Shown in pieces: positions 978 through 30,613 of a DNA stretch of 64,000 nucleotides; the stretch's first letter is position 1; each line of letters starts with the position of its first letter. The DNA is taken from positions 129,296-193,295 of the forward strand of contig JBBTVB010000002.1 of assembly GCA_038063455.1 (NCBI GenBank), given 5' to 3'. Origin of the DNA: Patescibacteria group bacterium. GTDB lineage: Bacteria; Patescibacteriota; Patescibacteriia; PEXW01. The notes under the pieces are model-generated. The model made no database searches. It was not told the DNA's origin and saw only the letters and a list, made by a program, of their open reading frames with translations. The position numbers were made by a program, and so were the translations under genes.

Positions 978-2186
978 CTAATTCACCGCTTCGCTGATGT
1001 TGTAAATTGGCAGCAAGATAGAAGACACCATAAACCCGACACCCACACCCATAACCAGCAAGATAACTGGCTCGATGAGTGCCACGAGGTTACGAACCAA
1101 GGCATCTAGCTCGTTTTCATAGAATTGCGCCACCTTAATGAGCACTTGGTCCAGCCGGCCAGACTGCTCGCCTACGCTCATCATTTGCGAGAGCATCAGC
1201 GGCACGGCCTTGCTTTTGACGAAGACAGTAGTAATAGAATTGCCGTCTTCGACCTCTTTAATGGTCTTTTCAACAATTTCCCGGTACGTGTAGTTGCCAA
1301 CCACTTCTGCAGTAATTGCCAAGGCATTCGAAATCGGCACCCCGGAGGTGAGCAGGGTAGAAAGCGTGCGCGAGAAACGCGTTAGGTAAATCATGGTAAA
1401 AATCTTGCCGCCAATGGGTATTTTAAGCTTTACAATATCCAAAATGCGTTTGCCACTCTCGGTACGGCGCCACAGCACAAACCCTACAATGATGCCGATA
1501 ACAGCCAAAATGACCACGTACCACTGGTTCTTGGCAAAGTTGCTTACCGCAATAAGGATGCGCGTGCTTAGTGGCAACTCCGCGCCACCTTCGGCAAACA
1601 CTTCTAAGAGCTTGGGCAACACGAATACCACCATCACAAAACCGACGGCGACAACGGCAAAGAGCACGACGGCCGGATAAATGAACGCCCCGCGAACGCG
1701 GCTGATGATGCCGTAATCTTTTTCCCGCTGGTCAGCCAGGTACACGAGCACTTCATCCAACTTCCCCGTGGTTTCACCCGAGCGGATCATGGACACGAAG
1801 AAGTTGTTAAACACCTGCGGGTACCGGCCCATGGCTGCCGAAAGCTTAGCGCCGCCGTCGACTTCGTCCAGCACGTCGGACAGAATCATTTTAAAATGCA
1901 CGTTGTTGGTTTGGCGCACCATAATGCGCAAGGCACGGACAATGGGCACATTCGCCGAAATCATCACCGAGAGCTGGCGAGCAAAAATGACCTGCTCTTT
2001 TACCGTCACACGGTTAAACAGGTTGGCGCCCAAGAACTTGGCGCTCTTGGCCCGCTCGTGCATGCTAATAATCGTCAGCTGCTTCTCGCGAAGGGTATCG
2101 TACGCGCCAGACTCAGTAGGGGCCACCACAGCCCCTTCCACGGTTTGGCCGGCCAGATTCTTCGCACGATAGTCAAAAATTGCCAT
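978..2186 (-). CDS. pilC: Type IV pilus platform protein PilC (GspF/T2SS-F family)
   Basis: 402 aa with two GspF-like halves and three TM segments. Sits directly downstream of the pilT-like gene. Confidence 0.9.
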   Translation of the reverse strand: MAIFDYRAKNLAGQTVEGAVVAPTESGAYDTLREKQLTIISMHERAKSAKFLGANLFNRVTVKEQVIFARQLSVMISANVPIVRALRIMVRQTNNVHFKMILSDVLDEVDGGAKLSAAMGRYPQVFNNFFVSMIRSGETTGKLDEVLVYLADQREKDYGIISRVRGAFIYPAVVLFAVVAVGFVMVVFVLPKLLEVFAEGGAELPLSTRILIAVSNFAKNQWYVVILAVIGIIVGFVLWRRTESGKRILDIVKLKIPIGGKIFTMIYLTRFSRTLSTLLTSGVPISNALAITAEVVGNYTYREIVEKTIKEVEDGNSITTVFVKSKAVPLMLSQMMSVGEQSGRLDQVLIKVAQFYENELDALVRNLVALIEPVILLVMGVGVGFMVSSILLPIYNISEAVN

Positions 2187-2191: not shown

Positions 2192-3268
2192 TTAGCCGCG
2201 GCTTACAATGTTGCGAAGACTAGCAGGGTCCAGCGCCACGGCTTCGGCATCTTGCGGCAGGATATCCCCGACGCGGACGAGTTCAGCCAAGGTTCGGTCT
2301 AACGATTCCGTACCATCTTGCCGGCTGGTCTGCATAGCATTGGCTAGCTGCAAGAACTGCCCATCCCGAATAACTGCGCGCGTGGCGGCCGCCGGGGTAA
2401 AGACCTCGGCTACTAATACGCGGCCGCCGCCAACCCGGGGCACTAAACGTAGGTTAAGCACACCCTGGAGCGCATCAGCCAATTCTTTACGAACCGTAGG
2501 CTGGTCGGCTGGGGAAAAGGCGTTCACCAAGCGCTCGATCGCCTGCACTGCCGAGTCTGCAGTGATGGTGGCAATAATAAGCTTGCCGCTGTGCAAAGCG
2601 TGCACGCAGGCACGCATGTCCTCCGTGCTATCCAGCTCGCCAATAGCAATAACGTCTACATCTTCCATATCCGTCAGCGTGAGCGCATGGCCAATAGTCG
2701 GCACGTCCGCACCCACCTCCCGCTGTTCAATCACGCTCTTCTGGCTCACGAATAAAAATTCAATGGGTTGCTCAATGCTAAGAATGTGTGCCACGCGCTC
2801 CAGGTTAATAAGGTTGACCAGCGAGGCTAGCACGGTGGTGCGACCCGCGCCGTACGGGCCAGAAATAAGCACTAACCCGTGCGGCGCACGAGCAAATGCC
2901 TCGGCACTCTTGGGCAGGCCGAGCTCGCGCGGGGTCGGGATGGCATCGGGAATGTAGCGTAGGTCCAAAGAGAGTGTCCCCTTCTGGTACATGGCGGTCA
3001 AACGGAAGCGCAATTTGCCGTCCACCGCCACGGTGGCGTGCACATCACGCTCGCGTTCGAGCGTCGCTTTCTGGCTTTCGGAAAGAATGCCATCAACAAA
3101 GCCCCGCACCACGTCCGCACTCACCACCGGCTCTTGGTCCAGCGGCACCAGCTTGCCGTCAACGCGGAGGAAGGGCGGGTTGCCCGGCACAAGGTGAACA
3201 TCAGACGCGCGGTACTGCGTGGCCTGGGTAAGTATTCGAGTGATAGCTTGCTGCTCGGAGGTTAACAT
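2192..3268 (-). CDS. pilT: PilT-family hexameric ATPase homologue with degenerate catalytic motifs
   Basis: 358 aa with PilT-like length and layout. Walker A is GPYGAGRTT (Lys replaced by Arg). The Asp box is IEQPIEF, Walker B is DVIAIGELD, and the His box is SGKLIIATITADSA (both His lost). An AIRNLIRE-like ATRAVIRDGQ motif is present. Confidence 0.8.
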   Translation of the reverse strand: MLTSEQQAITRILTQATQYRASDVHLVPGNPPFLRVDGKLVPLDQEPVVSADVVRGFVDGILSESQKATLERERDVHATVAVDGKLRFRLTAMYQKGTLSLDLRYIPDAIPTPRELGLPKSAEAFARAPHGLVLISGPYGAGRTTVLASLVNLINLERVAHILSIEQPIEFLFVSQKSVIEQREVGADVPTIGHALTLTDMEDVDVIAIGELDSTEDMRACVHALHSGKLIIATITADSAVQAIERLVNAFSPADQPTVRKELADALQGVLNLRLVPRVGGGRVLVAEVFTPAAATRAVIRDGQFLQLANAMQTSRQDGTESLDRTLAELVRVGDILPQDAEAVALDPASLRNIVSRG

Positions 3269-3284: not shown

Positions 3285-3377
3285 TTATTCTAACGAAGGC
3301 ACCCTGTACCGGAGCGTAGCGACTGGTACGGGGTGGGTGAGTATTCGAGTAATAGCTTGTTGTTCAGAAGTCAGCAT
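3285..3377 (-). other. 30-codon upstream ORF or gene remnant duplicating PilT codons 1-14
   Basis: Minus strand reads ATGCTGACTTCTGAACAACAAGCTATTACTCGAATACTCACC..., which translates to MLTSEQQAITRILT HPVPVATLRYRVPSLE*. The first 14 aa are identical to PilT (ATGTTAACCTCCGAGCAGCAAGCTATCACTCGAATACTTACC at 3268-3227), with 9 nt differences that are all synonymous. Confidence 0.5.
3300..3335. repeat. Hairpin repeat, copy 1 (ccctgYacc-ggaRcgtagcgact-ggtRcRggg)
   Basis: Stem 3302-3310 pairs with 3325-3333 around a 14-nt loop ggagcgtagcgact. A second copy at 24243-24278 has the same loop and compensatory stem changes. Confidence 0.6.
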
Positions 3378-3393: not shown

Positions 3394-3837
3394 TTACTTC
3401 ATTAAACGTCGGACCTTGGCCACAACTTCGGACGGCATGAAGTGCGCTTTAATAAGGTAGTCGAGGGCGCCCAGGTCTAAGCCTTTTTGTACGTCTTCTT
3501 TTTGGCCCAAATTGGTGAGTAAAATAACTGGTACATTTTTGGTGAGTGCATTGGCTTTTACTTCTTTAAGCACGTCGAAACCGCTCTTCTTGGGCAGCAC
3601 AATATCCAGCAGCATCAGGTCGGGCACTTCACGTAGGGCCAGGGTCACGGCCTGCTCGCCATCGCTGGCCAGCACGACATGAAAACCTTCAAGTTCCAAC
3701 TTCGTTACGTACATGCCAGCCAAAAACGTATCGTCTTCAACCAGCAAAATAGTGTGTTTTTTTTCAGTCGCGGGTTTTGCGGCTGCGGCGGGAACTTTCT
3801 TCTGGAGTGGTCGCTTCGGTGTAGGCATAGGGGGCAA
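3394..3837 (-). CDS. Single-domain response regulator (CheY/PilH-like REC) with a basic N-terminal tail
   Basis: 147 aa. Motifs: ILLVEDD, phospho-acceptor context LLDIVLP, LLTNLG, DYLIK. No output domain. Located between pilB and the pilT-like gene. Confidence 0.85.
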   Translation of the reverse strand: MPPMPTPKRPLQKKVPAAAAKPATEKKHTILLVEDDTFLAGMYVTKLELEGFHVVLASDGEQAVTLALREVPDLMLLDIVLPKKSGFDVLKEVKANALTKNVPVILLTNLGQKEDVQKGLDLGALDYLIKAHFMPSEVVAKVRRLMK

Positions 3838-3846: not shown

Positions 3847-5607
3847 TTATTCTTGAGTAGCGCGTAAGACTTCTTCCACGGTGGTTAGGCCAATAAGGGC
3901 TTTTACAAAACCGTCTTCTTTCATGGTCAGCACGCCCTGGCGCTTAGATTCGGCTTTAATATCCTGCAGGCGTGAGCCGCTGGTGATAATAATTTTCATC
4001 TCATCGGTAATTTCAATGACTTCCGCCACCACCAGGCGGCCTTTGTAGCCGGTGTTGCCACAGCGCACGCAGCCGCGGCCATGAGAGAACTGGAGCTTGT
4101 CGAGCGAGAAGTCTTTCGGGAAGGCGGACTGGGACGCCGCTTTGAGCGTCGTCAGCACAATGTCGCGTGTGGCGTCGGGTACCTCTTGCGGCTCTTTGCA
4201 ATACTCGCAAATGCGGCGCACCAACCGCTGGGCAATGATGGTAGAAAGGGACGATGCAATGAGGAACGGTTCCACTTTCATATCAATAAGCCGCGGCACG
4301 GCGCCAAAGGCATCATTGGTGTGCAAGGTGGAAAATACCAAGTGCCCGGTGAGGGCAGCGTTGACCGCGAGTTCAGCAGTTTCCGTGTCGCGGATTTCAC
4401 CGACCATGACCACGTCAGGGTCTTGGCGCAGAATCGAGCGCAACCCGTTGGCAAAATTGTAGCCCACGTCCGCATTCACCTGGCTCTGGTTCACACCCTC
4501 GGTGTGGTACTCCACCGGATCTTCCAGGGTAACAATGTTCACGTCTTCGGTGTTGATCATGCCGATGAGCGTGTACAGGGTGGTGGACTTACCCGAGCCG
4601 GTCGGGCCGGTGCTGAGCACCATGCCCTGCGTGGAAGAGAGTGATTTGACCAGCACGTCCCGCTCGCGGGCAATAAAGCCCAGGTCGTCGAGCGTGAGGA
4701 TGCGGCTGGACGAGTCGAGAATACGCATCACGACTTTTTCGTTGTTCATCAGCGGCAGGGTGGACACGCGGAGGTCAATGGACTTGCCGTCCACTTCGGT
4801 GTGGAAGCGCCCGTCTTGCGGCAAGCGCGTTTCGTCGAGCTTGAGGTTAGAAATGACCTTGATGCGTGCCACGATAGCGGCGTGCACGTAGGGTGGCAGC
4901 TTGATAGAGGTGTGCAAAATGCCGTCCACGCGGTAGCGGACGCGCGACCCCTCGACCGTGGGCTCAATGTGGATGTCGGACGCGCCGCCTTCAATAGCAT
5001 GGCGCAAAATGACCGCCACCATCTTGGACACCGGTGCGGTTTTAATAACTTCTTCAATGCCTTTATCGGCTAAGCTAATTTCGTCCAGCGCGCTAACTGT
5101 GGGGCGATCTGAGGGCTGGGTGGCGGCCAGTGCTTCTTGTACCTCAGCGCTCAAGCTAGCGTACTGCTTCAGAATGCCGCCCATCGAGTCGGACGACGCA
5201 ATGTGGTAGTCGATTGTAAAGTTGTTGTTGCGCGCTATAAATTCAATAGCTTCGAGCGCTCGGAAGTTTGTCGGGTCTACCAAGGCCACGCTCAACTTGC
5301 CTTTGTCCTTGGCAAAGGCCACCATTTGGTAGTTGCGGGCAATATCACGGGGGATAAGGTTGAGCAAGTCGGGGCCAATAACCCGTCCTTGCAGCTCGAC
5401 GTAGGGAATTTGAAAAACGTCGGCCCGGACCTTGGCCAGGTCGTCAGATTTTACAATGCCCTGCTCTTCCAGCACGCTAATGGTCGGCACACGCTTCTGG
5501 CGCGCCTGCTGTTCCGCGGCGGTAAACTGGGCGGGGGTAATGACTTTTCGCTCCAGCAGCACGCTCGCTAAGTCGCGAACGTCAGTTTTCACAAAGCTTG
5601 GGCTCAT
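3847..5607 (-). CDS. pilB: Type IV pilus extension ATPase PilB (GspE family)
   Basis: 586 aa. Canonical motifs: Walker A GPTGSGKSTT, Asp box LEDPVEY, Walker B DVVMVGEIRD, His box TGHLVFSTLHTNDA, and a tetracysteine CEYC...CVRC. Confidence 0.93.
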   Translation of the reverse strand: MSPSFVKTDVRDLASVLLERKVITPAQFTAAEQQARQKRVPTISVLEEQGIVKSDDLAKVRADVFQIPYVELQGRVIGPDLLNLIPRDIARNYQMVAFAKDKGKLSVALVDPTNFRALEAIEFIARNNNFTIDYHIASSDSMGGILKQYASLSAEVQEALAATQPSDRPTVSALDEISLADKGIEEVIKTAPVSKMVAVILRHAIEGGASDIHIEPTVEGSRVRYRVDGILHTSIKLPPYVHAAIVARIKVISNLKLDETRLPQDGRFHTEVDGKSIDLRVSTLPLMNNEKVVMRILDSSSRILTLDDLGFIARERDVLVKSLSSTQGMVLSTGPTGSGKSTTLYTLIGMINTEDVNIVTLEDPVEYHTEGVNQSQVNADVGYNFANGLRSILRQDPDVVMVGEIRDTETAELAVNAALTGHLVFSTLHTNDAFGAVPRLIDMKVEPFLIASSLSTIIAQRLVRRICEYCKEPQEVPDATRDIVLTTLKAASQSAFPKDFSLDKLQFSHGRGCVRCGNTGYKGRLVVAEVIEITDEMKIIITSGSRLQDIKAESKRQGVLTMKEDGFVKALIGLTTVEEVLRATQE

Positions 5608-6770
5608 AGCGGCACGAAAGGGTTTGCCCGGCCGGCTTTCCCGAGTTCCTGCCCGCTGGACTGGTTGCCCGCCCGGTCAACGGCGATGACGGTGTAGTAC
5701 AAAGTTTTTCCAGGGATCAGGTTTTTGTTCTCGATGCACAGCTCTTTGCTGCAGTCGCCGGTCGTGGTGGCAGCCTGATCGAGCGTGGCCACATCTTGCA
5801 CATTTTTCTGGCCCACCAGCGTGCCCAGCAACAGCGCCGCATCAGACCGAAACACGTCGTAGCGCACCACGTCGGCCGACGGTGAGGGCACCCAGGACAC
5901 CCGGACCAGATTGTTCTGGCCGTCGTAGGCGGTGGTCACGAAATCTGGCGCGTCGGGCATAGTGGCGTCGGTGCTGGTAATTTTTCCAGTCCAGGTTAGG
6001 CCGCCAATAGAGTCGGTCAGCCACACGACGGTGTAAAAATGCATGTCCGCTTTTCCACCGGCGTCATTAAAATTGGTAGTGCTGGCGTCCAGCGCTGCGA
6101 CCCGGCGACCGAGCAGGCCGGCAGCATCAGAGCGGTACACCTCAACTTTTTTGCCTTCCGCAGCACCAGGGGTTACCCACTGCAAGCGCACGCCGGCGGC
6201 ATCTGCCGCTTCGATGGTGAGCCCACCGCCGCTGGCCCCCACCTTGGCCGCAATTTGTGCCGATTGCGCGGCGCCTACCTGCTTCACGTAGTTAATGACA
6301 TAGGTCGCTGCCTGGCCGTCCACCGCCTGGGTGTAGAGGTACGACGTTGCGGTCGCGGGCAGCGTCACCAGGTTCTCATTGGTATCGCCCACCGCGCGGC
6401 TAACCCGGACCAGCGTGGCATCAAGTTTTGCCGGCGGTTTCCAGGTAAACAGAATTGCGCCGCCAGTTTGCACGTTAAAAGCTTCAACCGTGGGGGCGGC
6501 CACTTCGGTAGCCGGAATCTCGGCCGTCGCTTGGGTAATAAGCTCGGTGCCGCCTTTGGGCGAGAGCGCGTAGAACCGCGGGTCACGAAAAATTGCCTGC
6601 CCAAAATCTTTCGCTACGGTTTTGGTCTGCGTGGGGGTGCTGCCGGTGCTGGCCCCGCCGCTGCTCGACATGTTCAAGTACAGCACGTACCCGCCCAAGA
6701 GCAGGATGGGAATGCCGCCGAAGAGCAGGATTTTTTTAAGACGTTCGGGAGTTTGCTTCTGGACGAGCAT
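5604..6770 (-). CDS. Membrane-anchored protein with three FN3-like repeats (pilus-operon accessory)
   Basis: 388 aa with an N-terminal TM. Three modules of the type xLxWxxP...V(R/E)VYRS...YTV (AILFTWKPP..., GVRLQWVTP...VEVYRSD..., LVRVSWVPS...YDVFRSD...YYTVIAVD). Its stop overlaps the pilB start (ATGA at 5604-5607). Confidence 0.6.
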   Translation of the reverse strand: MLVQKQTPERLKKILLFGGIPILLLGGYVLYLNMSSSGGASTGSTPTQTKTVAKDFGQAIFRDPRFYALSPKGGTELITQATAEIPATEVAAPTVEAFNVQTGGAILFTWKPPAKLDATLVRVSRAVGDTNENLVTLPATATSYLYTQAVDGQAATYVINYVKQVGAAQSAQIAAKVGASGGGLTIEAADAAGVRLQWVTPGAAEGKKVEVYRSDAAGLLGRRVAALDASTTNFNDAGGKADMHFYTVVWLTDSIGGLTWTGKITSTDATMPDAPDFVTTAYDGQNNLVRVSWVPSPSADVVRYDVFRSDAALLLGTLVGQKNVQDVATLDQAATTTGDCSKELCIENKNLIPGKTLYYTVIAVDRAGNQSSGQELGKAGRANPFVPL

Positions 6771-6775
6771 GGCGG

Positions 6776-7363
6776 TTAGCTTTCAAAATAGTACGAGCGG
6801 AAACTAAAGCTGTAGCTATTTGGCTGGCTGGAAGATGAGGGTGAGTGAGAAATGGAAGTGAGGTCGAGCAAGGGGGCTTGGCGGGACACGACGTTCAAAA
6901 AATTCTTGAGTCCGTTGTAGTCGAGTGCGCCGCTGAGGATAACCGAGACGGTTACCGTGCGCAGGCCACCGACGCTGGCTGAGCCAGCCGCCGAGCCGCC
7001 ATCCGACACTGCGACCGAGGACAGGTCCATATTCGCATCCTTGGCAAAAGCTTGCATCTGCCGAAAAATCCCGGGCACATCGCGGCCCCGCGGCACAATG
7101 GCATTCAGGCGGGCAATATCGTCCGGCGAGACCGCATTCACCTCGTCACGCAAGCCGCGTAGCTGCTCCAGGTAGCTTTGCTGGGCCGCCAGCTGGGCTT
7201 GCTTCTGGGTATAGTCCAACCCGCCCAGCGCACGCACTTCTTTCACCCGCGGGGCGACGAACAAGAACCCGCCGATAATCAGGACCAGGGCGGAAACGCC
7301 TATGCCGAACACCAGGACATGTCGTTCGACGAAGTGTGTGAGTGAGGTAAGGGAGATGCGCAT
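6776..7363 (-). CDS. pilO: PilO-like pilus alignment protein
   Basis: 195 aa: N-terminal TM, a coiled-coil segment, then an alpha/beta domain. Position directly after pilN. Confidence 0.6.
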   Translation of the reverse strand: MRISLTSLTHFVERHVLVFGIGVSALVLIIGGFLFVAPRVKEVRALGGLDYTQKQAQLAAQQSYLEQLRGLRDEVNAVSPDDIARLNAIVPRGRDVPGIFRQMQAFAKDANMDLSSVAVSDGGSAAGSASVGGLRTVTVSVILSGALDYNGLKNFLNVVSRQAPLLDLTSISHSPSSSSQPNSYSFSFRSYYFES

Positions 7364-7364
7364 A

Positions 7365-8654
7365 CTAGCGGCTATGGTAGAAAACTTTGGGGTTCACCCG
7401 CAGGGACACGCTAAACGACACTTGTGATTTTGGGGCAGCTGCAGCTTGCCCCGGGGGGGTGTCGGTGGCTGCCGCGCTGCTCACTTTGGTGGCGCTGAGA
7501 ATAGTGGCTTGCAAAATGAAGTCGGTGGCTTTTTGGTAGGTGAGCAACTGCTTGCCAACTTCGTCAAACGTTGTGGCCGTGGCCGACATGCTCACGCTCC
7601 CGGCTACATCCACGCTTATATTACCGTAGCTCACCGTTGGCAGCGTGACCCCTTCAATCTGGGTGAAAAATTGATCCCAGTACACGTGCTGGTCCAGCGC
7701 CTTGGTAATGTCGGCTGTTCGCTGGCGCAGCACGCTGGCTTGCTGCAGCGGGCCACTTTCCAGCACAGACACCTGCTGCCCCAGTGCTGCAATTTCGGTG
7801 TCGAGGTCGGCAATCTTCGCATCCAGTGACCGTTGGTAGATGCCCAGGCCAATGGTGGTGCCCGCAACCAGCACAACCGCAGCCGCGACGATGATAGCGG
7901 CAATCAACCGATTCCTTGACGGACCTTCGGGCTGGTACTCTTGGGGCACCAAGTTGACGTTCAAGCCGGCGCCGAGAATTGGCGCGGCCTCAGAAAGTCG
8001 GTTTTGCGTTTTACCCGTTGCGGCTGGCGGGGTAAAGCCGAACGATGGAGGCGGCGGTGGCACAACCTGAGCTGGCTTCGTGCTCCAGGCAGGGGTTGGA
8101 GCCGCCGGGACTCCGGCTGGGCTTGGTGGTGCCCAGGCTGGCCGTCGCACGGGTGGCGGCGGCACAGGGGGCAAGCTCGCTGACGGCACCGACGTTACTG
8201 GTGAAGCTAGCTTTGGTGCTGGGGGCGGTGGCAGTGGTGTTGCACTTGCGTGCACTGGAGGTGTTGCCGCTATCGGGGCTGCTGGAACTTTGGGTTTTGC
8301 CTGCCCGAACATCTTGCGCAAAAAACCTTTTGCTTGCGGCGGAGCGGGCGGTGGTGCCAAACGGTCTGGCATGGTTTGCACGCGCGTCACCGGCCCAGAG
8401 GCAATGGTTGGTTTAGGTGCCGGGTACTGGACGGCTGGGTCTGACGCGGCAACGGCAGGTTTCGTCTTTGGCAAGGCAGTGGGCTTGCGCTTGAAAAGGG
8501 TCTTAAAAAATTCCAGCACCCCGCCAATGCGGTCTACCCGTTCCTGAAAAATCCGATCCTGCGGCGTGCTCATTTCCACCACATCTTTCGGCGCTTTTAC
8601 TTCGCGCTTCAGTTGCTTGTCTTTTTCCGGGAGTAGGTTGATATTCGATTCCAT
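7365..8654 (-). CDS. pilN: PilN-like protein with a Pro-rich N-terminal extension of about 220 aa and two INLLP-type motifs
   Basis: 429 aa. NINLLPE at residues 4-10 and LNVNLVPQE at residues 231-239, about 12 aa before the single TM (residues 250-273). A PilN-like periplasmic domain follows. Confidence 0.75.
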   Translation of the reverse strand: MESNINLLPEKDKQLKREVKAPKDVVEMSTPQDRIFQERVDRIGGVLEFFKTLFKRKPTALPKTKPAVAASDPAVQYPAPKPTIASGPVTRVQTMPDRLAPPPAPPQAKGFLRKMFGQAKPKVPAAPIAATPPVHASATPLPPPPAPKLASPVTSVPSASLPPVPPPPVRRPAWAPPSPAGVPAAPTPAWSTKPAQVVPPPPPSFGFTPPAATGKTQNRLSEAAPILGAGLNVNLVPQEYQPEGPSRNRLIAAIIVAAAVVLVAGTTIGLGIYQRSLDAKIADLDTEIAALGQQVSVLESGPLQQASVLRQRTADITKALDQHVYWDQFFTQIEGVTLPTVSYGNISVDVAGSVSMSATATTFDEVGKQLLTYQKATDFILQATILSATKVSSAAATDTPPGQAAAAPKSQVSFSVSLRVNPKVFYHSR

Positions 8655-8657
8655 ACC

Positions 8658-9770
8658 CTAGGTTCCCAGTTGGCGCAAAGCGAGCCCGACGGACACGGCA
8701 AAGCGCGGCCCAATTTCGTCCCACACCGGCTTCAGCTCCACCGGATACGACACGCGTGCCCAGGGGTCGCCAATGTAGGTTTTAATATTCAGCAGTTTCG
8801 TAAAGTACTCGGGCAAATTGGTAAGGTATGCCGAGCCGCCCGAGAGAATAACCTTCTCGATGCTGCGGCCTGTCCCCTGGTTTTGGTACAGGTTAAGCAC
8901 GTAGCGAATTTCGTTGGTAATAGAGTTGACCACGAACTCAATAGCTTTCGGGATGTTACTGTCGCTGGCGCCTTGGGTAGCAATAAAGAAGTCGCGCTTG
9001 AACTGCTCGGCCCGGTCGCTGCTAACGCGTAGCGTGCTCGCAATAGTTTTGGTAATAGTGTCGCCGCCCACGTCAATGGAGCGGGTAAGCATGGGAATGC
9101 CCTCGCTAAAGACCACAATATCGGTGGCCACCGCCCCAATGTCCACAATCATAATTGGTGCCTTGTCGTGGCCAATGAGTGACCGTTCCAGGGCAAAAGC
9201 TTCGGTCTCCAAGGCGACCAGCTGCAAATCGGCGGCTTTAAAAATTTCCATGTAGCGCTGCACCAAGTTCTTCGGCGCAGCCGTCAGCAGCACCTTCATG
9301 TCTTTTTGTGGCGCTTTGCTTGCATCGGGCGCTTTTTCCTGCGTGTTCTTGGCATTGGCCCCAGCCACCTTGGCGGCCAGGGAATCTTCTTTGAGCACTT
9401 CCCAATCCAAAATCATTTCGTCCACCGGCATGGGCACGAACTTCTTCGCTTCCCACTTTACCGCGGACATCAGCTCTTTGCGCGACATCTGTGGCAAAGA
9501 AATAATCGAGCTAAAAACGGTGAAGCTCGGCAAAGCGGTGACGGCGTACTTTGTGGTTACCCGCGACGCCTTGACCACCTGCTTCAGTGCTTCGCTAATA
9601 GCGCGCATTTCTTCGCCCACGCTGCCCTTCAGCAAGTCACTACGTTTTTCGGCAAAGCCGTAGGTGGTCAGCGTCGGGCGGCCGTTCAGCGCTTTTAGCT
9701 CTACGAGTTTAATCGAGGATCCGCCCACGTCGACACCGAGGTAGCTTTGTTTGGAAGAAAAAATTGCCAT
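8658..9770 (-). CDS. pilM: PilM, actin-like pilus assembly ATPase
   Basis: 370 aa. N-terminus YLGVDVGGSSIKLVELK and the overall PilM/FtsA-like pattern. Directly upstream of pilN. Confidence 0.9.
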   Translation of the reverse strand: MAIFSSKQSYLGVDVGGSSIKLVELKALNGRPTLTTYGFAEKRSDLLKGSVGEEMRAISEALKQVVKASRVTTKYAVTALPSFTVFSSIISLPQMSRKELMSAVKWEAKKFVPMPVDEMILDWEVLKEDSLAAKVAGANAKNTQEKAPDASKAPQKDMKVLLTAAPKNLVQRYMEIFKAADLQLVALETEAFALERSLIGHDKAPIMIVDIGAVATDIVVFSEGIPMLTRSIDVGGDTITKTIASTLRVSSDRAEQFKRDFFIATQGASDSNIPKAIEFVVNSITNEIRYVLNLYQNQGTGRSIEKVILSGGSAYLTNLPEYFTKLLNIKTYIGDPWARVSYPVELKPVWDEIGPRFAVSVGLALRQLGT

Positions 9771-9778: not shown

Positions 9779-12700
9779 TTACGGAAGAGTTCGGGTTGGG
9801 TTGGGTAAAGCTTTCGTAACGTCTTCTAGGCCCGGGGGTGGGTTGAGGAAGAGCCGTTCGTCAGCTATGACGCGCTCGGCAGCAGTGGTGTTCTCGCGCA
9901 AGCTGCCAATACGCTGGAAGCTCAATTGGCGGGCAAAGAGCAAACCAATAATCGTTAATGGTCGGCACGTCGGGCTGGTGACCGTACAGAGCGCTGCGTC
10001 GTTGTCATTACCGGTTTTAAAGGCCCCACCACAGTTGTTGCCGTAATTAGCTGCATTTGGGCAAGCAGCAGTGTCTGGATCGTGGCCAGCCGAAGTATCA
10101 CGACTGGTAACAATGAAAGCACCGGTTACCTTGTTTACTTCTTTGGCAATGGTCACATTGCCTTTGACGATGAACGCAATCGTCGGCAGGTCGCGGATAG
10201 AATCAGCAGCAACCATACCACTAAGGTCTGCGTCTTTCGCACGGTCTGCAGCAATAATATTATACTGAATATCTAGGTCACCGTCTACTACGACGGTCAC
10301 GCGTTGAGCGATATTATCAGTACCATTGTCTGCATATGGCAAACGCCACACCCAACGGATCTTCTCACCAGTAGTGTGCGTAGGGCACGAGCCCCCACAA
10401 GCCTTTATACGCTTCACATTAGTAAACTGGTTTGTGGCATAGCCGGTGTAAGAAAAGTACTCCTCGCTACTGCCACCGGGGTTTACCACAATGGCGCAGC
10501 CCGAGCAGGATGGGTAATGACTTGAAGCACCCGGTATAGCCACTGTGCTGGTTGGGAAAGTACCCGCGCCGGTGGCGTTTATGGTTCCGCCGGTGTTCAG
10601 GTCGCCTGTGGAGTTGCCCCAACTCGCTTCTGCGCCATCTACAGTCAGGTTGCCTTGCACGTGCACCACCTGACTTCGGAGTGGTGCCAGTTCATTAGGA
10701 ACAGGCGCGAGCAAACTGTTTAAGGGAAAAACGGGCGGGACGGTGGAACCTGTCCATTCTGGCGTCTTCCACCCGGCAAGCTCATTTATGGTCCATTCGG
10801 GTGAGATTGCATACGTCGCGGGCTTAGTCTTGTACACCATGTTGCCGAAACGGTTAACATCAAATTTTGCCGTGCCCGAATACCCTTTGACGCCATTGAC
10901 TGCGTTAGGGTAACCAGCTGCAGCGGTGTTCAATATATTCGTCAGCCCACCTACATCTAACTTCCCAAGTGCATTACGGTACGATACGGTGGTGCTACCA
11001 ACGGTCGGGAAAGGGATGGGGTCAACAACCCGATTAAGAAAACCAGCAACAGGACCCTGTAATACGCAGAACACAGAATCTGTGGCGCATGTACCCGTGC
11101 CCTTATTAATATCTTCGCCCGCGCTGGTGGGTGGGGTCCCAATAAACCCTGTTCCGGAAGATTGCACGGCACTAATTGCGTTGTTCGCCTCTATACGATA
11201 CGTGGCAACGTAACATGGTTCTAGTATGCCATCGTCATTGGGGTCGCATTCGTTATAACGAACGTTTGATAAATTTTCCGGGCTGGGCAGCTTTACATCG
11301 CCGCCGCTATACACGTTGCCAAAAAGTGTTTCGAGCCACGCAAAACCCACAAAAATAAGCGGGTTAAAGCGGATCCAGCCATAGTTACTGCTCCAGGCCC
11401 AGCCGGCCAGTTCGTAATGGTCACCGGTCCAAAAAGCATCCAGGCCATACTCTTTGCCGGTAACATTGTACACAGTTACTGCCCCACTACTTACGCTCAA
11501 CGGCATGGCCAAAGTAATAACCGTGCCGCTGCAATTAGAAACCACCGAATAGTCATTACCAATGGCAACCACTTGCCCGGCCACAATGCTACAGCTAGGC
11601 GCCACATTTACGTGCGTTGCGTCGGTGAGCGTGCCATTCTGCGACGGCGCACCGGTTAGGTAGTACCCGCGTAGCCGCACCCAGCCTTCGTCTCTATCTT
11701 TGCAATGTAGGGCAACGCTGTCGTAGTTGCACAGGTTAATAAACCGCCCCCAGCCATACACGTGCTGGCTGGCCGTGTCGTACTTGGCGGTGGGAATATT
11801 CGCCGTTGCCGCTGGGGCATTGTGGTAGGCCGCGCCGGGGGGGTTGCCGTAGTCATTATCATCTGTGTACGGGTCGGCATCGCTGCAATCAGCCAAACCA
11901 CCGCAATTGTAGATGCTATCTCGCCGTTCAAAACTCAAAAAACCTGAAAGGTTCGACCACGCGTACCCGCCAATGGGGAAGGTTTTAGCTGTCGTGGGGG
12001 ATATGGCAATGCCGCTGGCCGTAAGGTCTGGCAATTCGGTGGTGTTGCTGTGGGCTGTAGCCCCAATGCCCAAGCCAAAAAGGTTGGTACAATCCTGGTC
12101 GGGTTTGTTAATGCAGTTCAAGCTTAACCAACCAAAATTCGACGCCCAGCCATAGCCCAGAATCGGGCTAGAGCTATAGGGGGGGCTTGTGCCAATGGTT
12201 GCCCCGCCGCTATTTGCGCCAAATGCCACCCGGCTTCCGTCCAGGTGAGACCAAATAGTTGGAATTTTATCCAGCCCTGTCTGCAACGTGCCAGCTGGGA
12301 TATACGCGGTTGTTGACGGCGAAGCAACCCCGTAGGTTGTCGTAAAATCCGCATCCACTGGGTTCCACTCCCAGGGCGCGGTGCCAAGCTTCTCGGAAAA
12401 AAGCGCTAGGTGGCCGTTACCGGAATTCTTTGCGGCAACCCAGGCTTTGCCTTCGTAAAAACCAATCGATGGACTGGTGTAGGTGGTGCCAAGCTGAATA
12501 TTTTTTTGGTTTGCGTTGCAGGTTAAACTTGACGCCGCGGGCAGGCCGGTACCCACGGTGGCCGTACAGTTGGAGACGCGGAGTTTGTTGGTATACGCGG
12601 TATTAACTGAGTCTGCGCCGCCTTCATATGCGAACACCAGACGGCTGGTATTTGGACCGGTTGGCATACTAGCTACCGAAAAACTTAATGGGTACGCCCC

Positions 12701-13924
12701 AGTTGGGGTCGTAACAATAAGCGGTTCGTTTGGGGTAAGAAAACCAGGCTCGTCATACGCATTTTTGGTGCCGCCCGAACAGTTCGGCGTCGCGCCACCG
12801 GTAGTATTGTAATAGAATGGGAATACATCGACGATGCCGGTTTGGTAGCCGCCGCCCCATGTCGTAGATTCTGTTGCTGTTAAGGTATTAAAAGATATTC
12901 CCAAGGGGTAGGGAATCCCGCTCGTATCCAGCACCCTGCATGCTTGTATGCGCCGTGGCGGGATAGTGAGCAGACCGGGTATTTTTTTATCGCCAATGGG
13001 AAAAAATACCACTTTTGGCAAAGCGCCATTTTGCAAGGGGCTTGTCTCATTTGTTTTAATGATTGTATTTGCCGAACCCACAAACCCGCCACTTGCAATC
13101 CACGTTGGAGTGGAAGAAAAATTATCGGTGTACACAATACCAAGTTCGCGGTAGGGAAAAAGTGGATTCGCATTTTTTTGTACTCGGGAAGTCAAGCCCC
13201 ACACGCGTTCAGTAGAATCAGCCAAAATCTGCACGGCAACGCCAGTAATGCCAACACAATTTCTCGTATTGTTCCCGTCACAGGTTAACTTGGGTTCGCT
13301 CGCAGCGTCAGGTATCCAGGTCGTCGGGGTTTGGGATTTTAACTTTTGTATCCTGCTTTTGGTTAGCGGCTTTGTTGGCTCGTATGAGGATGCTTCCATG
13401 TCATACACGTACGACACCCAGATATCTTTCTCATTAGGGCTGACGTAAAGTGTGTAATCAAATTTTGAAACCCCGCCCGTGGTAACATTCGCAATTGAGA
13501 TGTAGGGCGTGGAGCCTTCAAGCGCATGTTGCCAAGTGAGTCCGTTATTCTCGCTAACCCGGAATTCTAAGCGATGTATGGTGCAATTGCCCCCGCAACC
13601 TGCGGTACTTACATTTTTGTTCACAAATCCAGCAACAAGCAGTTTTCTTCCACCCGCCCCTTCGGGCGTGATGTACACCATTCGTCGGTTTTGCGAAACG
13701 TCGCTCGACCAAGCAAAAGCATCTTCGTCAGTTGCGACGCTACTTCGTACGCCTAATGTATCAGTATTCCCATACTGACTCCCCGTAACCACCGGCACTG
13801 GGCTGGTGAGCTGCGCGTGAGCAACAACCGGCAAAAAAATAGTGATGCTAAAAAAGAGCCCAAAGCCGTACCAGGCTCTGGCCTTCGAAATGTTTCGCAG
13901 GAGTTTGGGTGCGTAGCTTTTCAC
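9779..13924 (-). CDS. Large secreted protein (about 1380 aa), first gene of the pilus operon; candidate pilus-associated adhesin
   Basis: The ORF track extends to 13993, but that part contains a terminator and a promoter. A GTG at 13924 gives MKSYAPKLLRNISKARAWYGFGLFFSITIFLPVVAHA/QL, a Sec signal peptide. Four G(W/Y)(A/G)WSxxxG(W/F)(I/L) motifs lie at about 11360-12160. No family recognised. Confidence 0.7.
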   Translation of the reverse strand: MKSYAPKLLRNISKARAWYGFGLFFSITIFLPVVAHAQLTSPVPVVTGSQYGNTDTLGVRSSVATDEDAFAWSSDVSQNRRMVYITPEGAGGRKLLVAGFVNKNVSTAGCGGNCTIHRLEFRVSENNGLTWQHALEGSTPYISIANVTTGGVSKFDYTLYVSPNEKDIWVSYVYDMEASSYEPTKPLTKSRIQKLKSQTPTTWIPDAASEPKLTCDGNNTRNCVGITGVAVQILADSTERVWGLTSRVQKNANPLFPYRELGIVYTDNFSSTPTWIASGGFVGSANTIIKTNETSPLQNGALPKVVFFPIGDKKIPGLLTIPPRRIQACRVLDTSGIPYPLGISFNTLTATESTTWGGGYQTGIVDVFPFYYNTTGGATPNCSGGTKNAYDEPGFLTPNEPLIVTTPTGAYPLSFSVASMPTGPNTSRLVFAYEGGADSVNTAYTNKLRVSNCTATVGTGLPAASSLTCNANQKNIQLGTTYTSPSIGFYEGKAWVAAKNSGNGHLALFSEKLGTAPWEWNPVDADFTTTYGVASPSTTAYIPAGTLQTGLDKIPTIWSHLDGSRVAFGANSGGATIGTSPPYSSSPILGYGWASNFGWLSLNCINKPDQDCTNLFGLGIGATAHSNTTELPDLTASGIAISPTTAKTFPIGGYAWSNLSGFLSFERRDSIYNCGGLADCSDADPYTDDNDYGNPPGAAYHNAPAATANIPTAKYDTASQHVYGWGRFINLCNYDSVALHCKDRDEGWVRLRGYYLTGAPSQNGTLTDATHVNVAPSCSIVAGQVVAIGNDYSVVSNCSGTVITLAMPLSVSSGAVTVYNVTGKEYGLDAFWTGDHYELAGWAWSSNYGWIRFNPLIFVGFAWLETLFGNVYSGGDVKLPSPENLSNVRYNECDPNDDGILEPCYVATYRIEANNAISAVQSSGTGFIGTPPTSAGEDINKGTGTCATDSVFCVLQGPVAGFLNRVVDPIPFPTVGSTTVSYRNALGKLDVGGLTNILNTAAAGYPNAVNGVKGYSGTAKFDVNRFGNMVYKTKPATYAISPEWTINELAGWKTPEWTGSTVPPVFPLNSLLAPVPNELAPLRSQVVHVQGNLTVDGAEASWGNSTGDLNTGGTINATGAGTFPTSTVAIPGASSHYPSCSGCAIVVNPGGSSEEYFSYTGYATNQFTNVKRIKACGGSCPTHTTGEKIRWVWRLPYADNGTDNIAQRVTVVVDGDLDIQYNIIAADRAKDADLSGMVAADSIRDLPTIAFIVKGNVTIAKEVNKVTGAFIVTSRDTSAGHDPDTAACPNAANYGNNCGGAFKTGNDNDAALCTVTSPTCRPLTIIGLLFARQLSFQRIGSLRENTTAAERVIADERLFLNPPPGLEDVTKALPNPTRTLP

Positions 13925-13949
13925 TTTTTTGTATCGAACAAGCAAAAAT

Positions 13950-13978
13950 ATTGTACCACCAAAATGCCAAAAAGTCAA
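13950..13978 (-). promoter_or_regulatory. Promoter of the pilus assembly operon
   Basis: Minus strand reads TTGACT (13978-13973), a 17-nt spacer, then TACAAT (13955-13950). Confidence 0.5.
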
Positions 13979-14007
13979 ACCAAAAATCCTCACCGCGCGG
14001 TGAGGAT
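13979..14007 (-). terminator. Intrinsic terminator of the 554-aa gene
   Basis: On the minus strand, a 9-bp stem AATCCTCACC-GCGC-GGTGAGGATT is followed by TTTTGGTTTGACTTTTT. A 14-bp perfect palindrome acgtaaatttacgt (14015-14028) lies just 3' of the stop codon. Confidence 0.6.
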
Positions 14008-30000: not shown

Positions 30001-30611
30001 AAGTGTTGCTCAATAATCCGGCGAAGGTCGGCTTCTTCAAGAATGCCAGTTAGCTGCGTGTCACCAACGAACATGGTCGGCACTTCCGTAATAGTCAGTC
30101 GCTTGCCTTCAGCAATTGCGGCATTGACGCGGGCCACGGCCTGGCCGCTATCCAGGCATTGCTGGAGCCTGGCCGCATCAGTCCCGCTTTCTTTTGCCAG
30201 AGTTTCCAGCGGTACGGTGCCTAGCTCATCCTGGTGAGCGAAGAGCACATCGTGCATTTGCCAAAATTTACCTTGATCCTGAGCGCAGCGCGCAATTTGA
30301 CTAGCCCGATTACTATTAGGATGGATTGGCAATGGAAAATCTTTAAACACCAAGGTTACCTGCTTTTGGTAACCCGCCAGGACGTTCTTCAAAATCGGCA
30401 CTTCGGCTTTGCAAAACTCGCATTCAAAGTCTGTAAAAACGACTACGTTAACCTTGCCTCGTTCTGCCCCGAGCTTGGGGTCAGTGCTCTCTACCCGTGG
30501 CCGGACCGCCGCGGTACTTCCCGCCCCAATAAGCGTGAGGCCGTAGGTAACAATAACCAGCACGGCAAAACCGCCGATAATCGACAGGAGGACATTCTCG
30601 TGCCGGTGCAT
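29997..30611 (-). CDS. DsbA-like thiol:disulfide oxidoreductase (membrane-anchored thioredoxin fold)
   Basis: 204 aa with an N-terminal TM, CxxC motif FECEFCK and a DsbA-like layout. Start and stop overlap the neighbouring genes. Confidence 0.75.
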   Translation of the reverse strand: MHRHENVLLSIIGGFAVLVIVTYGLTLIGAGSTAAVRPRVESTDPKLGAERGKVNVVVFTDFECEFCKAEVPILKNVLAGYQKQVTLVFKDFPLPIHPNSNRASQIARCAQDQGKFWQMHDVLFAHQDELGTVPLETLAKESGTDAARLQQCLDSGQAVARVNAAIAEGKRLTITEVPTMFVGDTQLTGILEEADLRRIIEQHL

Positions 30612-30613
30612 GG

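What the first reader, a model, noticed from the sequence alone, without database searches (positions are those of the whole stretch)
2192..3268. The only PilT-like ATPase in the locus has degenerate catalytic motifs
| Motif | PilT-like protein | PilB, 600 bp upstream |
|---|---|---|
| Walker A | GPYGAGRTT (invariant Lys replaced by Arg) | GPTGSGKSTT |
| Asp box | IEQPIEF | LEDPVEY |
| His box | SGKLIIATITADSA (both His lost) | TGHLVFSTLHTNDA |
| Walker B | Glu retained | canonical |

This looks like a pseudo-ATPase. It might regulate or cap the motor rather than power retraction.
Basis: partly seen in the sequence, partly recalled or inferred. Interest (0 to 1): 0.6.

Follow-up and report, generated by a model that had tools for sequence, protein, structure and literature searches.

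The report
Conserved catalytically degenerate PilT in Patescibacteria
The only pilus-retraction-motor gene in this ultra-small groundwater bacterium's pilus operon has lost the residues that burn ATP, yet it is strongly conserved across a whole branch of related bacteria, so it probably works as a switch or plug, not as a motor.

Summary
ORF 2192-3268 (-) is a full-length PilT homologue (E 5e-67 to Aquifex PilT; AF2 model TM 0.91 to Geobacter PilT4). It reads Walker A GPYGAGRTT (K->R), Asp box IEQPIEF (D->Q), GELDS for GEMRD (catalytic Glu kept, Arg lost) and His box SGKLIIATITADSA (H->K, H->T).

It is neither an error nor a decaying gene:
- The gene is identical in three assemblies.
- dN/dS is 0.05-0.08, the same as pilB and pilC.
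- The same substitutions define a clade of 108 Patescibacteria sequences that is monophyletic in 100/100 bootstraps with the catalytic columns masked.
- The clade occupies the same pilB-RR-pilT-pilC slot that holds a canonical PilT in other Patescibacteria.
- P-loop glycines, the Mg-binding glutamates, the first arginine finger and both terminal regions stay conserved. 21 positions near-invariant in active PilTs are lost, and some relatives lose the P-loop or the catalytic Glu altogether.

Most likely it is a nucleotide-binding PilT hexamer with no or very slow hydrolysis. It would act on the pilus platform as a switch or plug, not as a motor. No second PilT lies within 74 kb here or within 10 kb in 36 related loci. 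The whole genome could not be scanned and activity is untested. I found no prior description.

The parts
2192..3268 (-). pilT-like gene, 358 aa: a catalytically degenerate PilT orthologue
   Evidence: PF00437, 80.6 bits; PDB PilTs, E 1e-67 to 1e-57, gap-free; AF2 pLDDT 90.8; TM 0.91 to 6ojx; TIGR01420 295.5 bits, below the 319.1 cut-off.
2834..2860 (-). Walker A / P-loop, GPYGAGRTT (Lys -> Arg143)
   Evidence: In the degenerate clade: G137 100%, P138 91%, G140 92%, S141 94%, G142 99%, R143 85% (K 14%), S/T144 100%.
2756..2779 (-). Asp box, SIEQPIEF (Asp -> Gln167; Glu166 and Glu170 kept)
   Evidence: An Asp-box Glu coordinates Mg in PilB (PMC5424180).
2621..2662 (-). Atypical Walker B, DVDVIAIGELDSTE (catalytic Glu211 kept; Arg of GEMRD -> Asp213)
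   Evidence: R206S naturally inactivates V. cholerae MO10 PilT.
2549..2590 (-). His box, SGKLIIATITADSA (His -> Lys229, His -> Thr236; Thr of ETGH -> Ser227)
   Evidence: H229 coordinates the gamma-phosphate, and H229A abolishes twitching (PMC6858323).
2363..2386 (-). Equivalent of the PilT-specific AIRNLIRE motif, ATRAVIRD
   Evidence: I300 87%, R301 79% (+K 14%), D/E302 95% and G303 93% in the degenerate clade.
3394..3837 (-). Stand-alone response-regulator receiver gene between pilB and pilT-like
   Evidence: PF00072, 78 bits. Present in most Patescibacteria loci, whether their PilT is degenerate or canonical.
3847..5607 (-). pilB, extension ATPase with canonical Walker A, Asp box, Walker B and His box
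   Evidence: (T2SSE 418.7 bits plus MshEN).
978..2186 (-). pilC, platform protein, 6 nt downstream of pilT-like
   Evidence: (T2SSF 193 bits).
5604..9770 (-). Upstream part of the operon: pilM (8658-9770), pilN-like (7365-8654) and pilO-like (6776-7363), both named by position only with no Pfam hit, and an FN3-domain protein (5604-6770)
3336..3377 (-). Duplicated copy of the first 14 codons of pilT-like, in the RR-pilT spacer
   Evidence: 34/42 nt identical and all 8 differences synonymous. Absent from the orthologous loci L084 and L086.

Best explanation
The gene encodes the orthologue of the type IVa pilus retraction ATPase PilT. In an ancestor of a large Patescibacteria lineage it lost its catalytic machinery and was then kept for another job.

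Shown here:
- It is full-length, has the PilT fold and sits in the ancestral pilB-RR-pilT-pilC slot.
- It is under purifying selection as strong as on pilB and pilC.
- It carries substitutions at the Walker A Lys, the Asp-box Asp, the Arg after the catalytic Glu, both His-box His and about 15 further positions near-invariant in active PilTs.
- The P-loop glycines and Ser/Thr, both Asp-box Glu, Walker B Asp, the first arginine finger, the N-terminal domain and the C-terminal PilT-specific region remain conserved.

Inferred:
- The protein still binds nucleotide (Arg for Lys, Arg/Lys for the first His) and still forms a hexamer that docks on the PilC/PilM platform.
- It hydrolyses ATP not at all or orders of magnitude more slowly, so it cannot run the rotary power stroke.
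- It therefore acts as a nucleotide-dependent switch or plug. By occupying the platform it excludes PilB and ends extension. It then either lets the thin pilus depolymerise without a motor (low-force retraction, for example for DNA uptake) or holds it.
- The adjacent CheY-like response regulator possibly biases which hexamer engages.
For: Homology and fold.

Motif changes.

Not an artefact: the gene is identical in three assemblies.

Purifying selection: dN/dS is 0.045-0.075 for this gene, 0.073 for pilB and 0.054-0.071 for pilC.

Bimodality: of 196 non-redundant PilT-family sequences, 82 have 0 of 6 core positions changed, 6 have 1-3 changed and 108 have 4-6 changed.

Single clade: all 108 degenerate sequences group together in the NJ tree. 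This holds in 100/100 bootstraps after masking 25 catalytic columns.

Same syntenic slot as canonical PilT in other Patescibacteria.

Selective relaxation: column entropy rises only in the ATPase core (1.18 -> 1.68). It does not rise in the N-terminal domain (1.98 -> 1.88) or the C-terminus (1.86 -> 1.78).

Further erosion in relatives: P-loop GTANAEQST in L056; catalytic Glu lost in L042/L047/L068 and in 32% of the clade.

P-loop, Mg-binding Glu and R87 retained.

Literature:
- K136A, E204A, H229A and the natural R206S each inactivate PilT.
- ATPase-dead PilT still has a structural role at the machine.
- A Walker A K->R in the RecA-fold ATPase Rad51 keeps ATP binding, abolishes hydrolysis and gives hyper-stable assemblies.
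Against: - No biochemical data exist for any member of the clade.
- In the window's own subclade the catalytic Glu211, an Arg at 143 and an Arg/Lys at 229 are 100% fixed. That would also fit a re-wired but working site.
- I could not scan the rest of the genome (only about 74 kb of the locus region on a 418-kb contig). A second, active PilT/PilU that uses this protein as an adaptor is therefore not excluded.
- Hexamer formation and platform binding are inferred from conservation only.
- dS is saturated (1-2), so dN/dS values are approximate. pN of about 0.09 against pS of 0.6-0.7 is robust.
- The entropy comparison uses two sets of unequal phylogenetic depth.
Confidence: 0.55

Rival explanations
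1. It is still a working retraction motor with a re-wired active site. Arg143 replaces the Walker A Lys and Arg/Lys229 replaces the first His as the phosphate ligand. The retained Glu211 remains the catalytic base, so ATP is hydrolysed, perhaps slowly, and drives retraction.
For: - In the 27-member subclade containing the window protein, R143, E211 and R/K229 are 100% conserved and position 213 is always D/E.
- The replacements are specific and not random. Across the clade R143 is 85% and R229 78%.
- The P-loop, the Mg-binding Glu and the first arginine finger are intact.
- The gene is retained in the motor's operon slot.
Against: - Each of K136A, H229A and R206S alone abolishes PilT function in model organisms. 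Here five such positions are changed together.
- Walker A K->R abolishes hydrolysis in a related RecA-fold ATPase.
- The gamma-phosphate His (H229 in Pa) is never replaced by a basic residue; it becomes N/T/D/S.
- Sublineages lose the catalytic Glu or the whole P-loop yet keep the gene in place, so catalysis is not what is being preserved across the clade.
- The ATPase core is the only region with relaxed constraint.
Confidence: 0.2
2. It is a dead adaptor for a second, active ATPase. As with ATPase-dead PilT plus PilU in Vibrio cholerae, it docks on the platform and transmits the work of a PilU-like (or other PilT-like) hexamer encoded elsewhere in the genome.
For: - ATPase-defective PilT supports PilU-driven retraction, and PilT bridges PilU to the machine.
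- V. cholerae MO10 naturally carries an inactive PilT (R206S) and depends on PilU.
- A few tandem PilT-PilT fusions in the representative library pair a degenerate N-terminal half with a canonical C-terminal half (P0250, P0290).
Against: - No other T2SSE-family gene besides pilB lies in the 64-kb window or in 10 kb to its left.
- None of the 36 related loci with a degenerate PilT has a second PilT within +-10 kb.
- The genome scan retrieved 44 loci with canonical or near-canonical PilTs using the same patterns, yet none of the 80 loci share an assembly.
- Closed class-ABY1 genomes are reported with a single pilT hit. I could not check that protein's motifs.
- All of this is indirect.
Confidence: 0.15
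3. It is a sequencing or assembly artefact, or a pseudogene in decay.
For: None beyond the unusual motifs.
Against: - The ORF is intact and identical in three assemblies.
- Orthologues at 59-87% identity from other samples carry the same substitutions.
- dN/dS is 0.05-0.08.
- The AF2 model is confident, with pLDDT 90.8.
Confidence: 0.01

Closest known systems
PilT, the type IVa pilus retraction ATPase (P. aeruginosa PilT 3jvv; G. metallireducens PilT4 6ojx; A. aeolicus PilT 2ewv)
   Same: Same length and two-domain fold (TM 0.91), with 33-36% identity and no gaps. Same operon neighbourhood with pilB and pilC. Retains the P-loop shape, Asp-box glutamates, Walker B Asp, the catalytic Glu, the first arginine finger and most of the AIRNLIRE region.
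   Different: Lacks the Walker A Lys, the Asp-box Asp, the Arg of GEMRD, both His-box His, the Thr of ETGH and about 15 other positions near-invariant in active PilTs. Scores below the curated TIGR01420 cut-off.
Engineered or natural ATPase-dead PilT in Vibrio cholerae (K136A, E204A; MO10 R206S)
   Same: PilT proteins that cannot hydrolyse ATP yet still function at the machine as a scaffold. The R206 position is also changed here.
   Different: Those are single substitutions in strains that also have PilU, which does the work. Here five or more catalytic positions are changed, the state is ancient and fixed in a whole clade, and no PilU-like partner is seen nearby.
[quoted passage not shown]
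   Same: A PilT paralogue of the same fold (9n32, E 2e-50; TM about 0.8).
   Different: PilU has canonical Walker A/B, and its function as a retraction motor requires them. The window protein has degenerate motifs, keeps an AIRNLIRE-like motif and sits in the pilT slot.
Canonical PilT of other Patescibacteria (Saccharibacteria TM7x PilT; Kaiser-, Yanofsky-, Moranibacteria loci L025-L083)
   Same: Same conserved operon, pilM-pilN-pilO-pilB-RR-pilT-pilC. These are the closest canonical relatives in the tree.
   Different: They keep all six core catalytic positions. TM7x PilT is reported to have conserved Walker A/B boxes and is linked to twitching.
Walker A Lys->Arg variants of RecA-fold ATPases (Rad51-K191R)
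   Same: A biochemical analogy: Arg in the P-loop keeps ATP binding (Kd 52 versus 9 uM), abolishes hydrolysis and gives hyper-stable assemblies.
   Different: It is a laboratory mutant of a different family, not a naturally fixed state.

Membership tests
PilT/PilU family type IVa pilus ATPase (TIGR01420; PF00437 T2SSE) | Full-length sequence homology to PilT: an N-terminal PAS-like domain plus a RecA-like ATPase domain, about 350 aa, without the PilB N-terminal domains or Zn finger | tested here: met
   (E 4.8e-67 to 2ewv, residues 8-356 aligned with no gaps). (PF00437, 80.6 bits against a cut-off of 24.9).
PilT/PilU family type IVa pilus ATPase (TIGR01420; PF00437 T2SSE) | Score above NCBI's curated cut-off for TIGR01420 pilT_fam | tested here: not met
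   295.5 bits against a cut-off of 319.1, matching positions 2-341 of 343. A canonical Patescibacteria PilT (L025) scores 442. This would explain the generic GenBank name 'ATPase, T2SS/T4P/T4SS family'.
PilT/PilU family type IVa pilus ATPase (TIGR01420; PF00437 T2SSE) | PilT three-dimensional fold | tested here: met
   AF2 pLDDT 90.8. The best Foldseek hit is 6ojx_A (PilT4 with ATP): E 1.7e-38, TM 0.91, rmsd 2.0.
PilT/PilU family type IVa pilus ATPase (TIGR01420; PF00437 T2SSE) | Walker A GxxGxGK[ST] with the invariant Lys (K136 in Pa) | tested here: not met
   GPYGAGRTT. K is 100% in 82 canonical sequences. The degenerate clade has R 85% and K 14%.
PilT/PilU family type IVa pilus ATPase (TIGR01420; PF00437 T2SSE) | Asp box (I-E-D-P-I-E) | tested here: not met
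   IEQPIE. The Asp (100% in canonical) becomes Gln. Both Glu are retained.
PilT/PilU family type IVa pilus ATPase (TIGR01420; PF00437 T2SSE) | Atypical Walker B followed by the catalytic Glu (Dh4GE) | tested here: met
   DVDVIAIGE, with E211 present. The following Arg (R206 in Pa, 100% in canonical) is Asp.
PilT/PilU family type IVa pilus ATPase (TIGR01420; PF00437 T2SSE) | His box with two histidines (H222, H229 in Pa) | tested here: not met
   K229 and T236.
PilT/PilU family type IVa pilus ATPase (TIGR01420; PF00437 T2SSE) | PilT-specific C-terminal AIRNLIRE motif | tested here: inconclusive
   ATRAVIRD. A, R, I, R and an acidic residue match, and the region is conserved in the clade. The motif's function is not defined at residue level.
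PilT/PilU family type IVa pilus ATPase (TIGR01420; PF00437 T2SSE) | Encoded with pilB and pilC in a type IV pilus gene cluster | tested here: met
   pilM-pilN-pilO-FN3-pilB-RR-pilT-pilC, followed by pilins and pilD.
PilT/PilU family type IVa pilus ATPase (TIGR01420; PF00437 T2SSE) | ATP hydrolysis and powering of pilus retraction | not testable with these tools
   Needs purified protein or genetics.
Pseudoenzyme (pseudo-ATPase) derived from PilT | Clear homologue of an enzyme family that lacks residues essential for catalysis | tested here: met
Pseudoenzyme (pseudo-ATPase) derived from PilT | Maintained by purifying selection and conserved in a lineage, so not a decaying pseudogene | tested here: met
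   (dN/dS 0.05-0.08, equal to pilB and pilC). (monophyletic clade of 108 sequences). (56 degenerate single-domain clusters at 50% identity among the best 150 representatives).
Pseudoenzyme (pseudo-ATPase) derived from PilT | Demonstrated absence of catalytic activity | not testable with these tools
   Inferred only.
PilU (PilT-dependent accessory ATPase) | Canonical Walker A/B required for function, and co-occurrence with a PilT | tested here: not met
   The motifs are degenerate. No other PilT-like gene lies within 74 kb.

The most novel reading that the evidence does not exclude
A class-level branch of Patescibacteria has no catalytically competent retraction ATPase at all. By the record labels the branch includes Kerfeld-, Komeili-, Buchanan- and Uhrbacteria and relatives, and from my own knowledge of GTDB it is probably class ABY1. 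Its single PilT orthologue would be a nucleotide-binding pseudo-ATPase that works as a passive switch or plug on the pilus platform. Pilus retraction in these episymbiont-like bacteria would then be unpowered, or absent. PilT would have a conserved, separable, non-motor function.
Probability: 0.35. Interest if true: 0.75.

Novelty: new variant of a known kind. Interest (0 to 1): 0.62.

Why it matters
Type IV pili are treated as central to how Patescibacteria/CPR cells attach to hosts and take up DNA. Genome papers routinely list their 'PilT' as a retraction ATPase. If a large branch of the phylum carries only a catalytically dead PilT, those annotations over-state what the machine can do. Inferences about twitching, forceful retraction or retraction-driven DNA uptake in these lineages would then need revisiting.

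For pilus mechanics, a naturally fixed and strongly conserved dead PilT is a ready-made separation-of-function allele. It isolates whatever PilT does besides hydrolysing ATP, such as platform docking, competition with PilB or gating of depolymerisation. It also gives graded natural variants (Arg P-loop, Glu-less, P-loop-less) for structural and biochemical comparison with canonical PilTs from sister lineages that share the same operon.

Tried and rejected
1. Is there a canonical PilT elsewhere in the same genome? I searched the protein database with a profile of canonical Patescibacteria PilTs (A2). The best 120 hits were saturated by Saccharimonadia- and Berkelbacteria-type PilTs and none matched, so the test is inconclusive. 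The tools give at most 10 kb beyond window genes.

2. Patescibacterium danicum (closed class-ABY1 genomes): supplementary Table S5 gives one pilT hit per genome. I could not retrieve that protein to check its motifs.

3. Sequencing error or pseudogene: rejected.

4. PilU identity: rejected, because the motifs are degenerate and no PilT partner lies nearby.

5. Promoter/terminator scan and RNA folding of the RR-pilT spacer containing the duplicated 5' stub found nothing above background (z = -0.59).

6. Literature searches for a prior description of degenerate PilT in Patescibacteria/CPR found none. The library covers open-access papers and bioRxiv only.

7. Tandem PilT-PilT proteins from Myxococcales- and Verrucomicrobia-labelled MAGs (L030-L035, L046, L080) were checked as possible dead-plus-active fusions. 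Both halves are canonical.
Full report
**What is there.** The window is part of contig CAYIMS010000001.1 (417,908 bp) of GCA_964364675.1, a Patescibacteria MAG. An ENA contig carrying the same locus is named Hain_H32_02um, and a paper on Hainich groundwater Patescibacteria describes such 0.2-um fractions. Bases 978-9770 on the minus strand form one tightly packed type IV pilus operon:
- pilM (8658-9770)
- two genes that I call pilN-like and pilO-like by position only (7365-8654 and 6776-7363; no Pfam hit)
- an FN3-domain protein (5604-6770)
- pilB (3847-5607)
- a stand-alone response-regulator receiver (3394-3837)
- the gene in question (2192-3268)
- pilC (978-2186)

Beyond the left edge of the window the cluster continues with two pilins, a TPR protein, the prepilin peptidase PilD and minor pilins.

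**Checking the observation.** The 358-aa product aligns over its whole length and without gaps to every solved PilT (A. aeolicus 2ewv E 4.8e-67; Geobacter PilT4; P. aeruginosa 3jvu). There is therefore no ambiguity of register.
- Walker A is GPYGAGRTT (Lys -> Arg143).
- The Asp box is IEQPIEF (Asp -> Gln167).
- Walker B keeps the catalytic Glu211, but the following Arg of GEMRD is Asp213.
- The His box is SGKLIIATITADSA (His -> Lys229 and His -> Thr236).

tblastn with PilT, PilB and the protein itself finds only these two T2SSE-family genes in the 64 kb. None lies in the extra 10 kb to the left. The further changes are listed under "What is lost and what is kept".

**Not an artefact and not a dying gene.** The gene is base-for-base identical in the NCBI MAG, a Logan assembly and an ENA assembly. 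Orthologues at 85-87% identity from other samples (P0002-P0004) and at 59-69% (P0005-P0025) carry the same substitutions. I compared the window with two orthologous loci, L084 and L086. This gene has pN of about 0.09 against pS of 0.6-0.7, giving dN/dS of 0.045-0.075. That is indistinguishable from pilB (0.073) and pilC (0.054-0.071). dS is saturated, so the ratios are approximate, but the direction is unambiguous. AlphaFold2 with the clade alignment gives a confident model (pLDDT 90.8). Its best structural match is ATP-bound G. metallireducens PilT4 (TM 0.91, rmsd 2.0 A).

**A clade, not a one-off.** I pooled 196 non-redundant PilT-family sequences. They came from 120 database hits and 80 genome loci. 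I scored six core catalytic positions: the Walker A Lys, the Asp-box Asp, the catalytic Glu, the Arg of GEMRD and the two His. The distribution is bimodal:
- 82 sequences have none changed.
- 6 have one to three changed.
- 108 have four to six changed.

All 108 fall in one neighbour-joining clade that contains no canonical member. This remains true in 100 of 100 bootstrap replicates after masking 25 catalytic or lost columns, so the grouping is not circular. A profile search of 1.84 billion 50%-identity representatives returned 56 single-domain degenerate clusters among the best 150 hits. The family is therefore large and diverse. NCBI's PilT/PilU model TIGR01420 scores the window protein at 295.5 bits, below its 319.1 cut-off. 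A canonical Patescibacteria PilT scores 442. That would explain the inconsistent GenBank names.

**Same slot as the real motor.** The 80 genome loci show one conserved operon order, pilM-pilN-pilO-(FN3)-pilB-RR-pilT-pilC, across Patescibacteria.
- In genomes labelled Kaiser-, Yonath-, Yanofsky-, Moranibacteria and Paceibacterota the pilT slot holds a fully canonical PilT.
- In genomes labelled Kerfeld-, Komeili-, Buchanan- and Uhrbacteria, and in the window's relatives, it holds the degenerate form.
- From my own knowledge, GTDB places the latter group largely in class ABY1. I did not test that placement.

The degenerate protein is therefore the orthologue of the motor, changed in place, and not an extra paralogue. 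Saccharibacteria TM7x PilT is reported to have conserved Walker boxes and to be linked to twitching.

**What is lost and what is kept.** Twenty-one positions that are at least 95% conserved in canonical PilTs are different or variable in the clade. They include:
- K143 -> R (85%)
- D167 -> Q/K/R
- R201
- G210 -> S
- R213 -> E/D/S
- T217
- E226
- T227 -> S/A
- H229 -> R (78%) or K
- H236 -> N/T/D/S
- T237
- R246
- D249
- Q256 and Q258
- in the N-terminal domain, D77, R89 -> K/R and N91

The second arginine finger, R104, drops to 69%. The following positions remain conserved in both groups at 89-100%:
- the P-loop glycines, proline and Ser/Thr
- both Asp-box glutamates
- the QRE motif
- the Walker B aspartates
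- R35
- the first arginine finger, R87

Mean column entropy rises only in the ATPase core (1.18 to 1.68). It does not rise in the N-terminal domain (1.98 to 1.88) or the C-terminal region (1.86 to 1.78). The two sets differ in phylogenetic depth, which limits this comparison.

Erosion continues inside the clade:
- The catalytic Glu survives in only 68% of members.
- It is lost in L042, L047 and L068.
- One Kerfeldbacteria protein (L056) has no recognisable P-loop (GTANAEQST), yet keeps its place between pilB and pilC.
- In the window's own 27-member subclade R143, E211 and R/K229 are fixed and position 213 is always acidic.

**How it most likely works.** The published roles of the changed residues are clear.
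- The Walker A Lys is required for PilT's ATPase function, and the Glu after Walker B polarises the attacking water.
- An Asp-box Glu coordinates Mg.
- The second His coordinates the gamma-phosphate. The Thr of ETGH contacts it across the closed subunit interface.
- K136A, E204A, H229A and the natural R206S each abolish PilT function.

Five such positions are changed together here. Powerful ATP turnover is therefore very unlikely. This is an inference and was not measured. The intact and even tightened P-loop (S141 94% against 44% in canonical PilTs), the Mg ligands and R87 argue that nucleotide binding is still selected. Arg for Lys in a RecA-fold P-loop is a documented way to keep ATP binding while losing hydrolysis, and it yields unusually stable assemblies (Rad51-K191R).

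I therefore favour a nucleotide-bound, non-cycling PilT hexamer. The conserved N- and C-terminal surfaces suggest that it still docks on the PilC/PilM platform. There it would exclude PilB and stop extension. It would then either permit unpowered depolymerisation of the pilus or hold it. The CheY-like regulator encoded between pilB and pilT may influence which hexamer engages. It is present with both kinds of PilT, so it is not specific to the degenerate form. Steps shown: homology, fold, synteny, substitutions, selection and clade structure. Steps inferred: loss of hydrolysis, retained binding, hexamer docking and antagonism of PilB.

**Rivals.**
1. *A re-wired but active site.* The fixed Arg143, Glu211 and Arg/Lys229 in the window's subclade keep this alive. 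The loss of the gamma-phosphate His without a basic replacement argues against it. So does the further loss of the Glu or the P-loop in relatives that retain the gene.
2. *A dead adaptor for an active partner.* This is the situation in V. cholerae, where ATPase-dead PilT (including the natural MO10 R206S allele) lets PilU do the work and PilT bridges PilU to the machine. Several results argue against it. No partner lies within 74 kb here or within 10 kb in 36 related loci. None of the 80 loci share an assembly, although the same patterns retrieved 44 loci with canonical or near-canonical PilTs. Closed class-ABY1 genomes are reported to have a single pilT hit. All of this is indirect.
3. *Artefact or pseudogene.* Refuted.

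**Novelty.** Papers on CPR/Patescibacteria pili list PilT as the retraction or twitching ATPase without comment. The one study that looked at motifs examined Saccharibacteria, whose PilT is canonical. Six full-text searches found no description of a catalytically degenerate PilT clade. The protein is clearly of a known kind (PilT family) but represents a new, conserved, non-catalytic variant of it.

**Verdict.** It now rests on conservation, selection, synteny and graded erosion, not on a single sequence. Whether it is truly inactive, and whether it is the only PilT in the genome, remain to be shown.

Noticed in passing
window 3336..3377 (-), within the short ORF 3285..3377 (-): The first 14 codons of the pilT-like gene (MLTSEQQAITRILT) are repeated about 70 nt upstream, at the start of a 30-codon ORF. 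34/42 nt are identical and all 8 differences are synonymous. The stub therefore looks like the 5' end of a diverged pilT allele, perhaps a recombination scar. It is present in all three assemblies of this genome and absent from orthologous loci L084 and L086.
   Followed up: partly
window 3394..3837 (-); loci L004-L083: A stand-alone CheY-like receiver gene sits between pilB and pilT in most Patescibacteria pilus operons retrieved, whether their PilT is canonical or degenerate. In the window copy I read a likely acidic pocket and phospho-acceptor Asp (VEDD...LLDIVLP) by eye. Its partner kinase and target are unknown.
   Followed up: partly
L056 (Kerfeldbacteria, JACPGJ010000008.1) 9956..11059; L042, L047, L068: More extreme members of the clade. 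L056 has Walker A GTANAEQST, so there is no P-loop signature at all. L042/L047/L068 keep the Asp-box Asp but lack the catalytic Glu. All remain between pilB (or the RR) and pilC.
   Followed up: partly
L018, L019, L021, L022 (match at about 10001..11074, or 654..1727 in L018): A subgroup of PilT-like genes keeps the Walker A Lys but has lost the Asp-box Asp, the GEMRD Arg and both His. These genes lie directly upstream of a pilM, with no pilB or pilC detected in the stretch retrieved. They may belong to a second, differently organised pilus locus.
   Followed up: no
proteins P0250, P0290, P0274, P0282; L030-L035, L046, L080: Tandem PilT-PilT fusion proteins of about 700 aa exist. In MAGs labelled Myxococcales, Deltaproteobacteria, Chthoniobacteraceae and Opitutus both halves are canonical. 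In a few unnamed representatives the N-terminal half is degenerate and the C-terminal half canonical.
   Followed up: partly
window 56358..59321 (-): A leucyl-tRNA synthetase of 987 aa has a NUDIX hydrolase domain (PF00293, residues 393-509, E 1.2e-11) just after the match to the editing domain (residues 224-376).
   Followed up: no
window 28621..36360 (-): A type IV secretion-like cluster. It has a protein combining a T4SS_pilin domain with an SLT lytic transglycosylase domain (28621-30000), a second weak T4SS_pilin match (31908-33191) and a VirB4/TraG-type P-loop ATPase (34462-36360). No VirB11-like ATPase is present.
   Followed up: no
window 38943..51985 (-) and 9779..13993 (-): Very large proteins. 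One of 3053 aa has a CBM_4_9 and a dockerin match only. Next to it is one of 1288 aa with no Pfam hit. A 1404-aa protein with no Pfam hit lies immediately upstream of pilM, and a protein of similar size (1370 aa) occupies the same position in L084.
   Followed up: no
window 62466..63938 (-): A histidine kinase (HisKA plus HATPase_c) with a weak match to the PilS-like six-helix membrane domain (E 7.6e-5, below the cut-off). It is a candidate partner for the operon's response regulator but lies about 59 kb away.
   Followed up: no
record titles (e.g. L006, L008, L010, L014, L026, L029): Many 'MAG TPA_asm' records titled 'uncultured Gammaproteobacteria' or 'Candidatus Saccharibacteria' carry the typical Patescibacteria pilus operon and PilT types. 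The organism labels of these records look unreliable.
   Followed up: no
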